Assembly (NCBI GenBank): GCA_000004985.1
Contig: GG738863.1
DNA from: Naegleria gruberi
Taxonomy: Eukaryota
Length of the DNA: 64,000 nucleotides
Reading direction: 5' to 3' (one strand)
Shown here piece by piece: positions 52,139-57,056 of this stretch. Made by a program: the position numbers and the translations under genes. Every line of letters starts with the position of its first letter. The first letter of the stretch is position 1. The notes below the pieces were generated by a model that ran no database searches, had not been told where the DNA came from, and worked only from the letters and a program-made list of their open reading frames with translations.

Positions 52139-53191
52139 TCATTTGTTTAAATAATTGACAAGTGAATAGCTCAATAAACCAGTCAAACCAAGTCCAACAA
52201 CAGCAGAACCAATCATTTTACCATAATATTTAACAGGATGATAATGTTGATAATCAATATCATAAATTCCAAACCAATTTTCAATCTTGTTTACAATGGG
52301 ATTCAAATCTCTCAGAGTTCCAATAACTTGAATGTCAAATCTGTGTTCGAAACCAATCTTTTCATAAATTGGTCTTCCTTCCATGGTTGCTTGCAATACA
52401 CAATATTGATAATTATTTAAAAGAGCAATTTCTAATAGCAGAGTCACAACCATGGAAGCATATCCTCTTCCTTGATAGTTTGGCCGTGTGGTAATGGAAA
52501 ATAGAGAAGCAGTTTCTTTTCCCTTAATAACTTGTCCACAAGAAACAACTTTTCCATCTTGTTTGACGAGAACCCATTCATAATCTTTGGATTTCAATAA
52601 ATATTGAGCATAGTATTGACTTGCTTCTTTTGGTAATTCTTCTCCTTCAAAGAATGCTTCGTAATAAGTTTCTGCAATTTCAATAGCTTCTTCAGGAGTA
52701 CTCAAAGTTTTAATTGTAAATTCCTTTCCTTGGGCTAGAATGACCCCAGATTCATTTTGTAATTTTTGTAAACTTTCCTCGTTATATCCAAAATCATTTT
52801 TCAACTTTTTCAAATTCTTTTCTCTTAAATTCCTACTCTCCTTCAAATCACATATCATTCCAGTACTAACTTCAATCCAATTAATTGGCATCTTGTCAAA
52901 TATTACTTGTTGCAATTTGTCAAACTTGCTCGTTCTATTTTTCGAGTCATACATTGGTACAAACAAGTAGACAGGTACTCCATCCGATTGTTCCCGAATA
53001 GTTTCCAATAATTGCAAGTGATTCTCACTTCTGGTAACATAATAAAGGTCAGGTACGGGCAATTTCTTGATCCCTTTTTTGAAACCAGGCATGCATTCAT
53101 TCTCATTCTCATGCAACTCAAAAATAGAGGAAAAGCTTTTAACAGTGGCTCTGTTAAAGTCAAAGAGTGAGTCCACAATGAGTCGATTCAT
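52139..53191 (-). CDS. GNAT-family N-acetyltransferase-domain protein with a C-terminal transmembrane anchor
   Basis: The tracked start at 53269 is TTG; the first ATG is at 53191. The acetyl-CoA-binding motif (VVSCGQVIKGKETASLFSITTRPNYQGRGYASMVVTLLLEIALLNNYQYCVLQATMEGRPIYEKIGF) contains the Q/R-x-x-G-x-G/A core. The C-terminal MIGSAVVGLGLTGLLSYSLVNYL is a TM helix. The N-terminal 200 aa are unassigned. An upstream exon cannot be excluded. Confidence 0.55.
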   Translation of the reverse strand: MNRLIVDSLFDFNRATVKSFSSIFELHENENECMPGFKKGIKKLPVPDLYYVTRSENHLQLLETIREQSDGVPVYLFVPMYDSKNRTSKFDKLQQVIFDKMPINWIEVSTGMICDLKESRNLREKNLKKLKNDFGYNEESLQKLQNESGVILAQGKEFTIKTLSTPEEAIEIAETYYEAFFEGEELPKEASQYYAQYLLKSKDYEWVLVKQDGKVVSCGQVIKGKETASLFSITTRPNYQGRGYASMVVTLLLEIALLNNYQYCVLQATMEGRPIYEKIGFEHRFDIQVIGTLRDLNPIVNKIENWFGIYDIDYQHYHPVKYYGKMIGSAVVGLGLTGLLSYSLVNYLNK

Positions 53192-53864
53192 TTTTTTGTA
53201 AGGAAAATTGATAATAATTGGTTTGCTCGGAGTTATGGCAGGAGTTAATTTTTCAAAATTGAAGCTCAAATTGATTGCAAATCAAAATTGAAATTCATAA
53301 AATCACAGTTTGCAATTATTATAGCAAGACTCAATTCTTAAATTATACAAAGAATTAGTGTGGACATTGAGCTTAATGGCTTCGTTGCGTATTAGTTTAA
53401 GGTTGCTTTTCATTTTACCTTAACTGCCTCATAACTAATTCCAAAGTCATTTCTCAATTCTGTTCCAACAAAATTCAATCTGGTTTTTCTTGATAGAAAG
53501 TTTTATTGATTTCAGTATGAAACTTCGATCTTTCAACAAAAAGCTCATTGATCGCGGACATATTTCGATAAAGAGTTCGAAATGACGTGAAAGAAATTCT
53601 TCAGGAATGCATTGGAAGTTTAAACTTGTTGAATTGTTGAGAGTGAATTTGGTTAATTGGTGATAGAGATGAAATCACGTGATTGATGTAAACAACCTAG
53701 CACAAAATCTTGATTCATTGTTTAATTTCGAATAATTGTAGTTTCTCCAAATACTATAATAAGCAACATGTAATTTTGAATTACTTCAGAATTGTTTCTC
53801 ACACACGTTTATTTAAATCAAAATTGTTAATTTTTCAAAAGAATTCTCTAAATATTGAGCAAAA

Positions 53865-55079
53865 TTAATTCTTCTTTTCAATGTAATTGTCATGTTTCTT
53901 CTTATGTTCCTTCTTCTTGTGTTCCTTCTTTTCTGGAACATACTTGTCAACCTTAATTGGAGAACAAATCTTCTTCTTCTTTGAACAAACTGATTCTTCA
54001 CCATATTTGACACATTTCTTATGACCACCAACGAATTGATACTTGGCACAGACCTTATAACCAGGAGACTTCTTGACACACTTCTTCCAGTGCTTCTTCT
54101 TGATACATCTTGATTTGGTATGATGGTATTGAGTACAGAAGTTGACTGCCTTATAATTGGCACAGAATTTACGTTCCTTGAACTTTTCACAGACACGAAC
54201 TCTCTTCTTGAAATCACAGAATTGATTTTGACTCCACTTGGTACAGAAACGAGCCTTCTTTTGAGCAACACAGAACTTTCTATCAACGAATTTGACACAT
54301 CTCTTAGTGTAACCCTTCTTGAGACTGAATTTAACCTTATTGTATCTGACACACTTCTTAGTCTTGGTATATTTGGCACAAATCTTGTGACACTTTTGTT
54401 GACAGAAGGCATGATAATAAGTATCAGTCCATCCCTTGTAATGTTTACCGTTAACCTTCTTCCATCCCTTTTGGCATTTACAGACTTGCTTGTAGGCAGA
54501 ACAGTAAGCATCGAGCTTGTATTCAGCACATCTCTTCTTATAGTGATATCCGACCTTTGGAACATTGATGAATTTAGCACAGACATTTGACTTGTCATAC
54601 TTGGTACAAACGAAATGATAAGCATATTCATCACAAGCATTGTTCTTGCCCTTATGTTCACACAAATTCTTCCAGTTAGACTTGATACAATACTTTTCAG
54701 TCTTGTGCTTGTCACAAACTTGTTTGTAACCTGAAAAAAAGTTTACAAAAATTGTAAAATTTCAAATTAACTTACCATGACCCAAACACAACTTTCTAGC
54801 CTTGGAGTACTTGTCACACTTGCTGAATCTCTTGTATTGCAAACATTTGCCCTTACCAACCAACTTCCAGTCACAGCACTCTTTCTTGGTACCAATCCAT
54901 TCATAATCTGAACACTTTCCCTTGACTGTCTTGTAGTGAGTACACTTGTTGTAACAGAATTGTTGATGTTCTCCATAAGTATCAACATTCTTGGATGGTT
55001 CTGGTTTACTTGGATTTGCCAAGACCAAAGCAGCGAATGCAAGAGCAATGCACAAGCTTATAATGAATTTTGTTTTCAT
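53865..55079 (-). CDS. Secreted, highly basic, periodic lysine/cysteine-rich protein (two exons)
   Basis: Exon 1 54776..55079 (ATG 55079-55077; signal peptide MKTKFIISLCIALAFAALVLA); 45-nt intron 54731..54775 (GTAAGT...TTTTTTTCAG); exon 2 53865..54730. The join is in phase: G + GT gives G. The mature protein is about 370 aa with roughly 50 Cys and a very high Lys content. Units recur every 12-14 residues (K..C.KY.K.KK.C, for example KCVKFVDRKFCVAQKKARFCTKW). The C-terminus is KKEHKKKEHKKKHDNYIEKKN. The in-frame and antisense ORFs 53813..54715 and 54120..54590 are artefacts. Confidence 0.6.
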
Positions 55080-55389
55080 TTTGTTTTTTTTGATATGGAT
55101 TATGATTGTGCAGTTGGCAATGAGTTTAAATAGTATTTGGATGAACAGCAAAGTCTTATTGCTGCTGAAGGTATCGGTTGAGTCAATGTCATTTCCTAAT
55201 TTATCCAATGCACATTTATCAAAATTCATTCTTTTAAAATTTGACTCTTTTTAATACTATTCTCAAAAGTGATTTGGTGCTTTGATTGAAACTTTACAAC
55301 TTTGATAACAAAATATAAAATGAATTTCACCAGAGGAAGAATGACAAGAACCGTTCTATTTAATTTATTAAATCAATTTTATAATGTAT

Positions 55390-56802
55390 TTATGGAACTA
55401 TCTTGTCTCTAATCTCCTTTGGTAGGGACATTTGGGTTATGTTGCATTGAGAGGCTCGGATAGATTTCAAATATTTACAATTTTTAGAAAGTATTGTAAT
55501 GCCATTATTTGTAACTGGATTTCCACTAATATCAAGATACTCCAAGTATGGTAATTCAGCTGATAATATTTCTACAAATCTGTCATTAATATCTTGGTCT
55601 GTGACTGTGAGACTTCTAAGGGCTTTGAATTTGAATAAGCTATCAATTGTTAATTGAGGAGAACGATTAATAATGAGCTCATTCAATTCGCATGCAACTT
55701 CCGTAGAGCCCTCAATCGATACGTTTTCAATCAATCCTAGTTTGAGTTTCTTCAAAGAAGGTATTGCTAACAGAGAAGTAAATGAATAACCAAGTCCACA
55801 CGAGATGAATTCTGCTGTTCTTATCGAACGATTGGAAAGTCGCTTGAGCATTCCAGGATAAATATATTCGTGGTCGAGACTGAGAGTCACTAATTTTGGT
55901 CCAAGATTTGAAAAGAATTCAGCTTGTGCTCTTTCTGGTGGTGTATCGTAGACGGTAGCCCATCCATTCGCCGATCCACCATTTTCACCCTTAAGAACTG
56001 ATCTGACAGTTCTCAAATTTGGCCAATGCTTGATTGCTTCAGCGAACCTGAACACTGATGAAACACTAGTTTGAATATCTATCGTTGTCAAAGAAGGGGT
56101 ATTAATTGAAAAATCAATAATGTCCTGCTCCTTCAAATCTCCCTTCTTCAATGAATAACCTTTCCATCTCAATACTCTCAACTTGGGGAATTTAATCTTT
56201 TTGAAAACATCAAAATCATACATGAGATACTTGTCCTGTATGAGTTGAATCTCTTCCAATGTATTTGCCATTGCCTCCAAACAAATCCTTAGTGCCTCAG
56301 GTGGCAATAATGTATGTTTTGCAACCAATCCAGTAATTTTATCAATAGGCAGCAATTTCAATGTTTTCCTTGTTTGTGACAAGGCCTTCTCTTCATCAGC
56401 CACAGCAATATCAAACAATAATTTTGAAAATGGTTGTTTCATCACAATATTTGCTCCGTGAGCACCCATCGATTGAACCAGTCTTAATAACTCGGACCTT
56501 TGATAAGGTTTAGCAGGATCTAGCTCCAATTTTCTAAATAAAAACTTTGGTTTGCAATCTCTTTGGCCCGACCTAGTAAATTTTCCAAAATACAACATTA
56601 AAAACTTTTTACGATTCGATCCACATGATTGATCGAATTTTCCTCCATAAAACTCCAAAATTTTCAGCAATAATTCAATCGGAAGCTTGCATAAACTTCT
56701 CTTCAATTCCTCCTCCAGTGGAGGTGCCTTAGGGAGAGGCGTTTTATTCTTCCTCAAGTTTTGCAAATTTTGTTTCGAGTTTGAAGGAGTTACGAGAGGC
56801 AT
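55390..56802 (-). CDS. F-box / leucine-rich-repeat (FBXL-type, RNI-like) protein
   Basis: The tracked start at 56880 is not ATG; the ATG at 56802 gives MPLVTPSNSKQN.... The F-box reads LCKLPIELLLKILEFYGG. The C-terminal half consists of cysteine-containing LRRs (LRSLTVTDQDINDRFVEILSAELPYLEYLDISGNPVTNNGITILSKNCKYLKSIRASQCNIT). Confidence 0.55.
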   Translation of the reverse strand: MPLVTPSNSKQNLQNLRKNKTPLPKAPPLEEELKRSLCKLPIELLLKILEFYGGKFDQSCGSNRKKFLMLYFGKFTRSGQRDCKPKFLFRKLELDPAKPYQRSELLRLVQSMGAHGANIVMKQPFSKLLFDIAVADEEKALSQTRKTLKLLPIDKITGLVAKHTLLPPEALRICLEAMANTLEEIQLIQDKYLMYDFDVFKKIKFPKLRVLRWKGYSLKKGDLKEQDIIDFSINTPSLTTIDIQTSVSSVFRFAEAIKHWPNLRTVRSVLKGENGGSANGWATVYDTPPERAQAEFFSNLGPKLVTLSLDHEYIYPGMLKRLSNRSIRTAEFISCGLGYSFTSLLAIPSLKKLKLGLIENVSIEGSTEVACELNELIINRSPQLTIDSLFKFKALRSLTVTDQDINDRFVEILSAELPYLEYLDISGNPVTNNGITILSKNCKYLKSIRASQCNITQMSLPKEIRDKIVP

Positions 56803-57056
56803 TTTTTCTCTTGCTTGAAAGTTAGTTTTTTCAAAGCAGCAAATGGCGGCTTTTTTTTCTGATGACAAATTAAAGAGCAACGTTTGGAGTAACGGTTCTT
56901 TAATATATTGAGCTTTTCATTTGGTTTGTTCAATGTTTGTTGAGTTACTGGAGGAGATTACAGTACTGTATTTGGTAAGGTTATGTGAAGAATGGGATGG
57001 ATTCTTCATTCCTCTATGGAATGATGTAATTTTGGTATTAATATATTAGTTAGTTA

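What the first reader, a model, noticed from the sequence alone, without database searches (positions are those of the whole stretch)
53865..55079. Secreted, extremely basic, periodic Lys/Cys-rich protein of unknown family
After a clear signal peptide and one 45-nt intron, the mature protein is about 370 aa with roughly 50 cysteines and perhaps 25-30 percent lysine. Units recur every 12-14 residues (K..C.KY.K.KKC...), with aromatic Y/F/W at fixed offsets, and the protein ends in a KKEHKKKEHKKK tail. The regular Cys spacing implies a disulfide-stabilised modular fold, and the charge implies binding to polyanions such as nucleic acid, acidic polysaccharide, cell wall or mucin. Candidate roles are a structural wall, coat or eggshell component, or an antimicrobial or adhesive secreted protein. 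I do not recognise it as any standard Cys-repeat family (EGF, follistatin, TIL, granulin), since it lacks their spacing.
Basis: seen in the sequence. Interest (0 to 1): 0.6.

Follow-up and report, generated by a model that had tools for sequence, protein, structure and literature searches.

The report
Naegleria secreted lysine/cysteine-ladder protein
This is a real, spliced and probably highly expressed Naegleria gruberi gene for a secreted, very basic protein with a cysteine at every ninth residue. It belongs to a small uncharacterised family found only in Naegleria and in unnamed environmental eukaryote contigs. It is most likely a cross-linkable building block of the cyst wall or another extracellular matrix, but its function is untested.

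Summary
The gene is real. It lies on the minus strand (ATG 55079, 45-nt intron 54775-54731, stop 53865) and encodes 389 aa. It is N. gruberi NAEGRDRAFT_48501, annotated only as "predicted protein".

- The mature protein has 35 Cys, not about 50.
- It is 24% Lys, with pI 9.7.
- The period is 9 residues (C-x8-C, consensus C-x-K-[YFW]-K-x-x-x-[VF]-C), not 12-14.

The architecture is: signal peptide, two homologous ~146-aa Cys arrays, and Cys-free linkers that each carry an xD[TSK]Y motif. In paralogues and orthologues that motif is amplified into C-terminal VDTYKPPKK or IDSYKP repeats.

Translation is supported by dN/dS of 0.09, by an intron conserved in position but not in length, and by strong codon bias shared with homologues.

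No Pfam, PDB or viral relative exists, and AlphaFold2 failed twice. Named homologues are all from Naegleria, which holds at least four subfamilies.

My best reading (about 0.4) is an abundant disulfide-stapled polycationic structural protein of the cyst wall or matrix. Rival readings are an antimicrobial or prey-binding protein and an adhesive. I found no expression or localisation data.

The parts
55125..55132 (-). TATA-like box (TATTTAAA), 46-53 nt upstream of the ATG
   Evidence: The same ACTATTTAAAC / TATAAA element sits at a similar distance upstream of the start codon in three homologous loci (L005, L006, L001). The in-frame upstream ATG at 55229 is not conserved, because the relatives have stops in that frame.
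54776..55079 (-). Exon 1 (codons 1-101 plus the first base of codon 102); ATG at 55079
   Evidence: The MKTKF start is shared with the NCBI models P0001 and P0009 and with the relative L005.
55017..55079 (-). Signal peptide, residues 1-21 (MKTKFIISLCIALAFAALVLA)
   Evidence: It has a basic n-region, a 17-residue hydrophobic core and V-L-A at -3 to -1. All full-length homologues have a hydrophobic N-terminus although its sequence diverges. No signal-peptide predictor was available, so this is read from the sequence.
54957..55016 (-). Cys-free N-terminal linker, residues 22-41, with the first xDxY motif (VDTY)
54731..54775 (-). 45-nt GT..AG intron (phase 1)
   Evidence: Read-through hits a stop (GHGKLI*). 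The position is the same in two relatives, but the introns there are 41 and 53 nt, their sequences differ, and the exon flanks are conserved. The intronless paralogue encodes LGHGYKQFC contiguously.
53865..54730 (-). Exon 2, including the TAA stop at 53865-53867
54474..54956 (-). Cys array I, residues 42-187 (18 Cys; the DNA span includes the intron)
   Evidence: The C-x8-C ladder is shown. Sixteen invariant columns, 13 of them Cys, in an 11-sequence alignment.
54405..54473 (-). Cys-free W/Y/K-rich middle linker, residues 188-210 (QKGWKKVNGKHYKGWTDTYYHAF), with the second xDxY motif (TDTY)
   Evidence: Subfamily C proteins carry DPYAPP / DLYVP insertions here.
53964..54404 (-). Cys array II, residues 211-357 (17 Cys)
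   Evidence: Twelve Cys columns are invariant across 14 sequences. It is homologous to array I by profile-profile comparison (hhalign probability 95.6%, E=1.3e-8, 117 columns).
53868..53963 (-). Cys-free C-terminal tail, residues 358-389 (SPIKVDKYVPEKKEHKKKEHKKKHDNYIEKKN): third xDxY motif (VDKY) plus two copies of a 15-nt KKEHK repeat
   Evidence: The tail varies in length between the window gene, its 96-97% copy and close relatives. Homologues carry 4x VDTYKPPKK or 4x IDSYKP here.

Best explanation
This is N. gruberi gene NAEGRDRAFT_48501. It is a genuine, spliced and probably highly expressed gene for a secreted 44-kDa polycationic protein.

The protein is two homologous ~146-residue arrays. 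In each, a Cys recurs every ninth residue in the unit C-x-K-[Y/F/W]-K-x-x-x-[V/F]-C. The arrays are separated and flanked by Cys-free linkers that each carry an xD[T/S/K]Y motif.

I infer that each array is a disulfide-stapled, beta-rich ladder or solenoid. One face would be aromatic and hydrophobic. The other would carry the Cys and Lys.

I also infer that the protein is an abundant structural component of an extracellular matrix of the amoeba, most probably the cyst wall. There it would bind wall glycans or acidic polymers through its charge and aromatic platforms. It would be made insoluble by intermolecular disulfides (the mature protein has an odd number of Cys, 35) and possibly by Tyr/Lys oxidative cross-links at the xDTY linkers.

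Shown: gene structure, translation, family, periodicity, two-domain architecture and codon bias. Inferred: the fold, the location in the cyst wall and the cross-linking chemistry. The confidence of 0.4 is for the cyst-wall or matrix function; the gene, family and architecture parts stand at about 0.9.
For: Gene and translation:
- The spliced ORF is 389 aa.
- It is identical to NCBI XP_002678214 except at the splice acceptor.
- dN/dS is 0.09 against a 91%-identical relative and 0.08 against an 80%-identical one.
- The intron position is conserved while its length is 41, 45 or 53 nt.

High expression (inferred):
- In this gene TTC is 17 of 17 Phe codons and AAG is 81% of Lys codons, with no GTA, GTG or TTA. 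Across 22 other long ORFs of the window the figures are 37% TTC and 45% AAG.
- The same bias is seen in the paralogue on L001 and the distant member on L002, but not in their neighbours.

Secretion:
- There is a signal peptide and no other hydrophobic segment.

Scaffold:
- 17 of 34 Cys intervals are exactly 9, against at most 12 in 100,000 shuffles.
- An aromatic residue at +3 has p=2e-8.
- The Cys columns are invariant or nearly so, even in members with only 13% Lys (P0017, P0018). So the Cys frame, not the charge, defines the family.
- Arrays I and II are homologous.
- Both AlphaFold2 runs placed only beta-strands outside the signal peptide, at low confidence.

Cross-linking and matrix hints:
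- Tyr is 7.9% of the mature protein.
- The xD[TS]Y motif occurs only in Cys-free linkers and is amplified to 4x VDTYKPPKK or 4x IDSYKP in the paralogue and in N. fowleri.
- The Cys count changes parity between paralogues (35 versus 32).

Analogy:
- Abundant Acanthamoeba cyst-wall lectins combine lineage-specific Cys domains with Thr/Lys/Cys-rich or Thr/Lys/His-rich segments (PMC6541295).

Weak negative evidence for trophozoite abundance:
- The N. fowleri orthologue is absent from the held supplementary tables of two trophozoite-derived N. fowleri proteomic studies, although it has 14 tryptic peptides of detectable size.
Against: - There is no expression, proteomic or localisation evidence for any family member. 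One paper states that data on differential expression between Naegleria life stages are very limited (PMC9928731).
- No carbohydrate-binding module or any other known domain was detected.
- The fold is unknown: AlphaFold2 gave pLDDT 44.7 and 49.1, and Foldseek found nothing.
- Codon bias shows abundance, not stage or location.
- The absence from supplementary tables is weak evidence. Those tables may be truncated or use other identifiers.
- A polycationic Cys-rich secreted protein fits antimicrobial or adhesive roles equally well.
- The genomic neighbours give no hint (GNAT, HECT, INCENP, ARID, TCF25).
Confidence: 0.4

Rival explanations
1. A polycationic antimicrobial or prey-binding effector. 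The protein would be secreted, or delivered to food vacuoles, by the bacterivorous trophozoite. It would bind anionic bacterial envelopes (LPS, teichoic acids) through its roughly +72 charge, with disulfides giving protease resistance. It might be cleaved at the Cys-free linkers into two active arrays.
For: - It has a signal peptide, an extreme positive charge and a dense Cys scaffold.
- Strong codon bias fits an abundant trophozoite product.
- The two-array architecture with exposed linkers would allow processing.
- From general knowledge, Naegleria makes pore-forming peptides from multi-peptide precursors.
Against: - At 44 kDa, with 146-residue conserved arrays, it is far larger than typical Cys-stabilised antimicrobial peptides.
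- Purifying selection is strong (dN/dS 0.08-0.09) and the family is small. Immune and effector families are more often fast-evolving and expanded.
- Distant members keep the Cys frame but have only 13% Lys, so charge is not the conserved property.
- The N. fowleri orthologue is not listed in the held tables of two trophozoite-derived proteomic studies.
Confidence: 0.2
2. A substrate adhesive or 'glue' protein. The amoeba would deposit it to attach to surfaces or to coat its trail or matrix. It would work like marine Lys/Tyr/Cys-rich adhesives: cation and aromatic contacts with the surface, and Cys or Tyr redox chemistry for cohesion.
For: - Its composition (Lys 24%, Tyr 8%, Cys 9.5%, basic pI) resembles mussel foot protein-6-type adhesives. 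That comparison is from my own knowledge and was not tested here.
- Homologues carry proline- and lysine-flanked Tyr repeats, VDTYKPPKK.
- It is secreted and codon-biased.
Against: - No homology to any adhesive protein was found.
- The window gene itself has only single xDxY motifs, not tandem repeats.
- I found no evidence for DOPA or hydroxylation chemistry in Naegleria.
- It is not listed in the held trophozoite-derived proteomic tables.
Confidence: 0.15
3. A secreted metal-binding or redox-buffering protein. The many Cys and His would stay reduced and chelate Cu, Zn or Fe, rather than forming structural disulfides.
For: It has 35 Cys and 17 His, an odd Cys count and an HK-rich tail.
Against: - The strictly periodic single Cys lack the CxC / CxxC clusters typical of metal-thiolate proteins.
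- From general knowledge, passage through the oxidising secretory pathway favours disulfides.
- His is not conserved in the alignment, apart from one GHG.
Confidence: 0.05
4. An untranslated or decaying ORF, or an annotation artefact of lysine-codon-rich low-complexity DNA.
For: - There is no transcript or peptide evidence in the sources I could search.
- Overlapping long ORFs exist in other frames (300 aa at 53813-54715 on the minus strand, 156 aa at 54120-54590 on the plus strand).
Against: - dN/dS is 0.08-0.09.
- Cys columns are invariant from N. gruberi to N. fowleri and beyond.
- The intron must be removed to keep the frame in three species.
- There is selected codon bias and a conserved TATA-like box.
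Confidence: 0.02

Closest known systems
NCBI/JGI record NAEGRDRAFT_48501 (XP_002678214, UniProt D2VCS7, 'predicted protein', N. gruberi NEG-M) and its 96-97% copy NAEGRDRAFT_64508
   Same: It is the same gene, identical in sequence over the shared residues. It is already in public databases as an unnamed protein.
   Different: The deposited 385-aa model uses an acceptor 12 nt further downstream and drops GYKQ. That tetrapeptide is conserved in every homologue, lies within a C-x8-C interval, and is encoded contiguously in the intronless paralogue. No function, family or domain is attached to the record, and no paper I could search mentions it.
Acanthamoeba castellanii cyst-wall lectins (Leo: two 8-Cys domains with or without a Thr/Lys/His spacer; Jonah: Thr/Lys/Cys-rich domain plus CAA domain), PMC6541295
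   Same: These are secreted, lineage-restricted, Cys-patterned proteins of an encysting amoeba. They are built as two repeated Cys domains with low-complexity basic spacers, occur as small gene families, and some isoforms are basic.
   Different: There is no sequence relationship. All named homologues found for this family are from Naegleria, and Leo is reported to be unique to Acanthamoeba. The Leo domains have 8 Cys each, with no 9-residue ladder. Cellulose binding and wall location are shown for Leo and Jonah and are untested here.
Disulfide-stapled beta-solenoid proteins such as Tenebrio molitor antifreeze protein (12-residue coils, Cys every 6 residues); my own knowledge, an analogy only
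   Same: Both have a strictly periodic Cys along a short repeat, which implies one staple per turn or hairpin. Here the 18-residue periodicity of the aromatic residues would fit two Cys per coil.
   Different: The period (9 versus 6), composition and size all differ. The family profile matched no PDB sequence meaningfully. No reliable model exists to test the fold.
Lys/Tyr(/Cys)-rich cross-linked extracellular proteins: mussel foot proteins, trematode eggshell precursors (G-Y-D-K-Y repeats), plant PRPs (PPVYK); my own knowledge
   Same: They share a basic, Tyr- and Lys-rich secreted composition. Family members here carry tandem Tyr-Lys-Pro repeats at the C-terminus (VDTYKPPKK, IDSYKP). The suggested mechanism, oxidative Tyr/Lys cross-linking into an insoluble matrix, is the same.
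   Different: There is no homology. In this family the repeats are appendages to a large conserved Cys-array core, and the window gene has single motifs only. The cross-linking enzymes and modified residues are untested.
P0029, an unnamed 2,774-aa Ser/Thr-rich protein with 112 consecutive C-x8-C intervals
   Same: It has the same 9-residue Cys period with an 18-residue super-unit and aromatic residues shortly after the Cys. It was picked up by the family profile at E=5e-8.
   Different: Its composition is completely different (S/T/A/F-rich, not basic). The match rests on the periodicity alone, it has no Pfam family either, and its source organism is unknown. It may be a convergent use of the same geometry or a very distant relative.

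Membership tests
Naegleria C-x8-C array family (defined here: NAEGRDRAFT_48501/64508, 71888/74241, N. lovaniensis C9374_012983, N. fowleri FDP41_004030) | Full-length collinear homology with conserved Cys columns | tested here: met
   E-values are 1e-244 to 1e-102 with 51-96% identity over 88-99% of the query. There are 66 invariant columns, 28 of them Cys.
Naegleria C-x8-C array family | Signal peptide, then two homologous Cys arrays separated by a Cys-free linker, with xD[TSK]Y motifs in the linkers | tested here: met
   (hhalign probability 95.6% between arrays I and II).
Standard Cys-repeat domains (EGF, follistatin/Kazal, TIL, granulin and all other Pfam-A Cys domains) | A match to the family HMM at or near its gathering score | tested here: not met
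   There were 0 Pfam families at E<=10 for the window protein. Seven homologues gave none above cut-off.
Any protein family with a solved structure | Sequence-profile match to a PDB chain | tested here: not met
   A profile of 6 homologues against 177,635 PDB sequences gave one hit at E=0.12, a viral immediate-early protein matched on the low-complexity tail. Foldseek against the PDB gave 0 hits, but the model was unreliable.
Acanthamoeba Leo / Jonah / Luke cyst-wall lectins | Homology to the 8-Cys, CAA or CBM49 domains | tested here: not met
   There was no CBM49 or CAA Pfam hit. All named homologues of the family are from Naegleria. The Leo 8-Cys domain is reported to be unique to Acanthamoeba.
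Cyst-wall structural proteins (a functional class, not a homology family) | Induced during encystation and physically present in purified cyst walls | not testable with these tools
   No stage-resolved Naegleria dataset that I could read lists the gene.
Cyst-wall structural proteins (functional class) | Binds a wall polymer (cellulose, chitin or another glycan) | not testable with these tools
   This needs recombinant protein and pull-down assays.
Tyr/Lys/Pro tandem-repeat wall or adhesive proteins (plant PRP/extensin, mussel foot proteins) | The protein is dominated by tandem short Tyr/Lys/Pro repeats | tested here: not met
   The window protein has three isolated xDxY motifs and no tandem array. 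Homologues have only 4 C-terminal copies attached to a ~330-aa Cys-array core.
Disulfide-stapled beta-solenoids (TmAFP-like) | A regular solenoid with one intracoil disulfide per turn | tested here: inconclusive
   The periodicity is compatible, and AlphaFold2 predicts only strands, but at pLDDT 45-49. There is no sequence match.

The most novel reading that the evidence does not exclude
The C-x8-C array is a previously undescribed disulfide-stapled beta-ladder or solenoid fold. This small Naegleria family is the main proteinaceous scaffold of the cyst wall, including that of the pathogen N. fowleri. The proteins are locked together through intermolecular disulfides and through Tyr/Lys cross-links at the xDTY(KPPKK) linker motifs. 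If so, they would be the first molecularly defined Naegleria cyst-wall proteins, and a cyst-specific diagnostic or cysticidal target.
Probability: 0.15. Interest if true: 0.65.

Novelty: new variant of a known kind. Interest (0 to 1): 0.42.

Why it matters
In the literature I could search, no Naegleria cyst-wall protein is identified, and one paper states that stage-specific expression data for the genus are very limited. Cysts are the resistant, dispersing stage of the genus, which includes the lethal N. fowleri.

This is a conserved, probably abundant, secreted family with no relatives elsewhere. It is a concrete candidate for a wall or matrix component, and a simple encystation RNA-seq or wall-proteomics experiment would test it.

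The strictly 9-residue Cys ladder, duplicated into two 146-residue arrays, matched no Pfam or PDB family, and AlphaFold2 could not model it. It may therefore be a new disulfide-rich repeat architecture.

If instead it proves to be an antimicrobial or adhesive protein, it would still be an unusual one. As it stands, it is an uncharacterised lineage-specific gene with a striking sequence pattern and no functional evidence.

Tried and rejected
- **Pfam.** Scans of the window protein and of seven homologues found nothing.
- **PDB.** A profile search gave only a spurious E=0.12 hit on the Lys-rich tail.
- **AlphaFold2, full length.** With 6 sequences it gave pLDDT 44.7 and pTM 0.19.
- **AlphaFold2, array II.** With 14 sequences it gave pLDDT 49.1. 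I do not use either model for anything beyond 'no helices predicted'.
- **Spliced protein as input.** I could not submit it to the restricted tools. I used the 96%-identical P0001 or contiguous exon-2 translations instead.
- **Viral contigs.** The scan found no relative.
- **Paralogues in the window.** There is none.
- **Neighbouring genes.** They are unrelated housekeeping-type genes.
- **Literature.** No paper in the library contains the locus tags or accessions.
- **Cyst-versus-trophozoite RNA-seq.** The N. fowleri paper gives no usable gene list.
- **Supplementary tables.** Those of five other papers do not list the gene or its orthologue, and one table was truncated before the relevant IDs.
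- **Older chemical analysis.** A search for an older chemical analysis of N. gruberi cyst walls found nothing.
- **Weakest HMMER hits.** P0031, P0032 and P0033 are translated 9-codon simple repeats (xxFCxxxxx). I rejected them as homologues.
- **Upstream ATG.** I rejected the in-frame ATG at 55229 as the start, because the extension is not conserved and a conserved TATA-like box lies inside it.
Full report
**What is at the coordinates**

The interval 53865-55079 is a two-exon gene on the minus strand.
- Exon 1 runs from 55079 (ATG) to 54776.
- A GT..AG intron of exactly 45 nt occupies 54775-54731.
- Exon 2 runs from 54730 to 53865 and ends in TAA.

The spliced product is 389 aa. Without splicing the frame stops after nine intron codons (GHGKLI*).

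The N-terminus, MKTKFIISLCIALAFAALVLA|NPS, has the n-region, hydrophobic core and small -3/-1 residues of a signal peptide. I read this from the sequence, because no predictor was available.

The mature protein is 368 aa and 43.9 kDa, with pI 9.7 and a net charge of about +72. It contains 89 Lys (24.2%), 35 Cys (9.5%) and 29 Tyr (7.9%). It has no N-x-S/T sequon at all.

The qualitative picture is right: signal peptide, one 45-nt intron, a mature protein of about 370 aa, a very basic Lys/Cys-rich periodic sequence, aromatic residues in register, and a KKEHKKKEHKKK tail.

The numbers are not.
- The mature protein has 35 cysteines, not about 50.
- Lysine is 24%, not 25-30%.
- The repeat period is 9 residues, not 12-14.

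Of the 34 Cys-to-Cys intervals, 17 are exactly 9 and 22 are 9 or 10. In 100,000 shuffles of the mature sequence no single spacing occurred more than 12 times (mean 5). The Cys autocorrelation peaks at 9, 18, 27 and 36, and the aromatic autocorrelation peaks at 18 and 36.

The unit is C-x-K-[Y/F/W]-K-x-x-x-[V/F]-C.
- An aromatic residue is at +3 of 19 of 35 Cys (p=2e-8).
- A hydrophobic residue is at -1 of 20 of 35 Cys (p=4e-5).

**Identity and gene model**

The window is Naegleria gruberi NEG-M. The gene is NAEGRDRAFT_48501 (XP_002678214, UniProt D2VCS7), annotated only as 'predicted protein'.

The deposited 385-aa model is identical to mine except that it uses an acceptor 12 nt further downstream and so loses GYKQ.
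- H101, G102, Q105 and C107 are invariant in the family.
- GYKQ restores a C-x8-C interval.
- The intronless paralogue encodes LGHGYKQFC contiguously in genomic DNA.
- Two related environmental Naegleria-like loci have an intron at the same position. Those introns are 41 and 53 nt long and unrelated in sequence, and each is followed directly by the conserved GTTACAAACAAG.

An in-frame ATG lies 150 nt upstream, at 55229. It is not the start. In the relatives that frame contains stops, and a conserved TATA-like box (window 55125-55132) lies between it and the MKTKF start.

**Is it translated?**

Yes, by three lines of comparative evidence.
- dN/dS is 0.09 against a 91%-identical relative (376 codons) and 0.08 against an 80%-identical one.
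- The Cys columns are invariant from N. gruberi through N. lovaniensis to N. fowleri and to an environmental homologue of about 40% identity.
- The gene has a marked codon bias. TTC is 17 of 17 Phe codons and AAG is 81% of Lys codons, TTG dominates Leu, and GTA, GTG and TTA are absent. In 22 other long ORFs of the window TTC is 37% and AAG is 45%.

The same bias is seen in the paralogue and in a distant family member, but not in their neighbours. I take this as selection for efficient translation, meaning high expression in at least one stage. That step is an inference. I had no calibration set of known highly expressed Naegleria genes.

**The family**

Three searches were run: a word-indexed search of 5.8 billion proteins, an exhaustive HMMER profile scan of 1.84 billion representatives, and a second profile search. 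They found only about 20 real relatives. Every named one is from Naegleria, and the rest are short environmental eukaryote contigs.

At least four subfamilies exist.
- **A.** The window gene and its 96-97% copy NAEGRDRAFT_64508, with N. lovaniensis C9374_012983.
- **B.** NAEGRDRAFT_71888/74241, about 57% identical and intronless, ending in four VDTYKPPKK repeats. N. fowleri FDP41_004030 resembles this type and ends in four IDSYKP repeats.
- **C.** N. lovaniensis C9374_009239 and environmental relatives, with DPYAPP and DSYVPKP insertions in the linkers.
- **D.** Short, hyper-basic N. gruberi proteins (P0025, and the C-terminus of the probably mis-fused model P0024).

Two environmental members (P0017, P0018) keep the Cys frame but have only 13% Lys. 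So the Cys scaffold, not the charge, is the conserved core.

There is no Pfam hit, no PDB sequence relative, no viral relative and no paralogue in the window.

**Architecture**

The protein is laid out as follows.
- Signal peptide, residues 1-21.
- Cys-free linker with VDTY, residues 22-41.
- Cys array I, residues 42-187, with 18 Cys.
- Cys-free W/Y/K-rich linker with TDTY, residues 188-210.
- Cys array II, residues 211-357, with 17 Cys.
- Cys-free tail with VDKY and two KKEHK repeats, residues 358-389.

Profiles of array I and array II align over 117 columns (hhalign probability 95.6%, E=1.3e-8). The alignment includes the one long irregular interval in each array. The protein is therefore an internal duplication, although the shared periodicity inflates that score somewhat.

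The xD[T/S/K]Y motif occurs only in the Cys-free segments. It is the element that is amplified or inserted in other family members.

**Fold**

AlphaFold2 failed twice: pLDDT 44.7 for the full length with 6 sequences, and 49.1 for array II with 14 sequences. Foldseek against the PDB then returned nothing.

All I take from the models is that they contain only strands outside the signal peptide.

The residue pattern around each Cys alternates: hydrophobic at -1, Cys, variable at +1, Lys at +2, aromatic at +3, Lys at +4. This is what a five-residue beta-strand would show, with an aromatic and hydrophobic face and a Cys/Lys face, followed by a four-residue turn.

That pattern would fit a disulfide-stapled meander or an 18-residue-per-coil solenoid. 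It would be geometrically analogous to insect beta-helical antifreeze proteins, which I cite from my own knowledge. This is a hypothesis, not a result.

**Function**

Nothing I could search gives expression, proteomic or localisation data for any family member.
- The locus tags and accessions occur in no paper of the library.
- The N. fowleri cyst-versus-trophozoite RNA-seq paper has no usable gene list.
- Supplementary tables of five other studies do not list the gene or its orthologue.
- One paper states that knowledge of differential expression between Naegleria forms is very limited.

The functional assignment therefore rests on anatomy. The protein is secreted, probably abundant, Cys-laddered, polycationic and Tyr-rich. 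Its mature Cys count is odd, and the parity changes between paralogues. It carries Tyr-Lys-Pro motifs of the kind used for oxidative cross-linking in other extracellular matrices.

The closest functional analogy is the Acanthamoeba cyst wall. Its most abundant proteins are lineage-specific two-domain Cys proteins with Thr/Lys/His-rich or Thr/Lys/Cys-rich segments (PMC6541295).

The cyst wall is the best-known extracellular structure of Naegleria (from my own knowledge). I therefore favour a cyst-wall or matrix structural role, at about 0.4. The rivals are an antimicrobial or prey-binding polycation (0.2), a substrate adhesive (0.15) and a metal or redox protein (0.05).

The N. fowleri orthologue is absent from the held tables of two trophozoite-derived N. 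fowleri proteomic studies, even though it has 14 tryptic peptides of detectable size. This leans slightly away from the trophozoite-based rivals, but it is weak evidence.

**Novelty and verdict**

The sequence has been public since 2010 as an unnamed predicted protein. What is new here is:
- the recognition of a Naegleria-restricted family;
- the exact 9-residue Cys ladder;
- the two-array plus xDxY-linker architecture;
- the corrected splice site;
- the evidence for selection and high expression.

By kind it is a new variant of a familiar class, the lineage-specific Cys-patterned secreted matrix proteins of protists. It has no detectable relative in any described family.

The interest is moderate. 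The pattern is striking and the family includes the pathogen N. fowleri, but the function is entirely inferred. The decisive experiments, an encystation time course and wall proteomics, are simple.

Noticed in passing
window 54719-54775 (minus strand): The deposited gene model NAEGRDRAFT_48501 (385 aa) appears to be mis-spliced. It uses an AG 12 nt downstream of the conserved acceptor, which deletes the invariant GYKQ and breaks one C-x8-C interval. The model for the near-identical copy NAEGRDRAFT_64508 keeps GYKQ.
   Followed up: yes
P0029 (2,774 aa; source organism unknown): This is an unrelated-looking Ser/Thr/Ala/Phe-rich giant protein with 112 Cys-Cys intervals of exactly 9 residues and an 18-residue super-repeat (SSFITSSTC FDSATLAAC). 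It shares the ladder geometry of the Naegleria family but not its composition, and it has no Pfam family. It is either a convergent use of the geometry or a very distant relative.
   Followed up: partly
P0024 (N. gruberi 'predicted protein', 443 aa) and P0022 (183 aa, environmental): These gene models join cytosolic-type domains (SAM + PB1 in P0024, an unrelated Cys-poor N-terminal segment in P0022) to a C-terminal Lys/Cys array of this family. They are most likely two adjacent genes merged by the gene caller rather than real fusions.
   Followed up: partly
window 55125-55132 (minus strand); L005 about 9-19; L006 and L001 upstream regions: A TATA-like element (ACTATTTAAAC / TATAAA) is conserved 45-60 nt upstream of the start codon in four family loci, followed by an A-rich leader (AAAAAAAACAAA ATG). 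It could serve as a starting point for finding co-regulated genes.
   Followed up: partly
window 53868-53930 (minus strand): The C-terminal tail holds two copies of a 15-nt repeat (GAACAYAAGAAGAAR = EHKKK). The tail differs in length and sequence between the window gene (…EKKEHKKKEHKKKHDNYIEKKN), NAEGRDRAFT_64508 (…EKKKEHKKKN) and a 91% relative (…NKKVEQKKN). It is a fast-evolving low-complexity appendage.
   Followed up: partly
window 53813-54715 (minus strand, 300 aa) and 54120-54590 (plus strand, 156 aa): Long ORFs lie in other frames and on the other strand, overlapping exon 2. One is Ser/Arg/Val-rich and the other Leu/Thr/Ser-rich. They are by-products of the AAG/TGT-rich periodic coding sequence, not genes. 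Environmental gene callers that read through the intron produced such frame-shifted products (P0007, P0008).
   Followed up: yes
window 53865-55079 (the protein): This 389-aa secreted protein has no N-x-S/T sequon at all, so no classical N-glycosylation is possible. Any glycosylation would have to be O-linked.
   Followed up: no
window 52139-53269 (minus strand) and 55390-56880 (minus strand): The immediate neighbours are a GNAT-family acetyltransferase ORF (Pfam PF00583, E=1e-10) with a long N-terminal extension of unknown function, and a 496-aa ORF with no Pfam match. Further genes in the window are a HECT E3 ligase, an INCENP-like protein, TCF25, an ARID protein and a TTC39-like protein. 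None is related to the finding.
   Followed up: partly
L001 (ENA ERZ929261 contig, 174-1364): The subfamily-B paralogue is intronless, whereas subfamily A has the phase-1 intron at a conserved site in at least three species or strains. This is intron gain or loss within a young family.
   Followed up: partly
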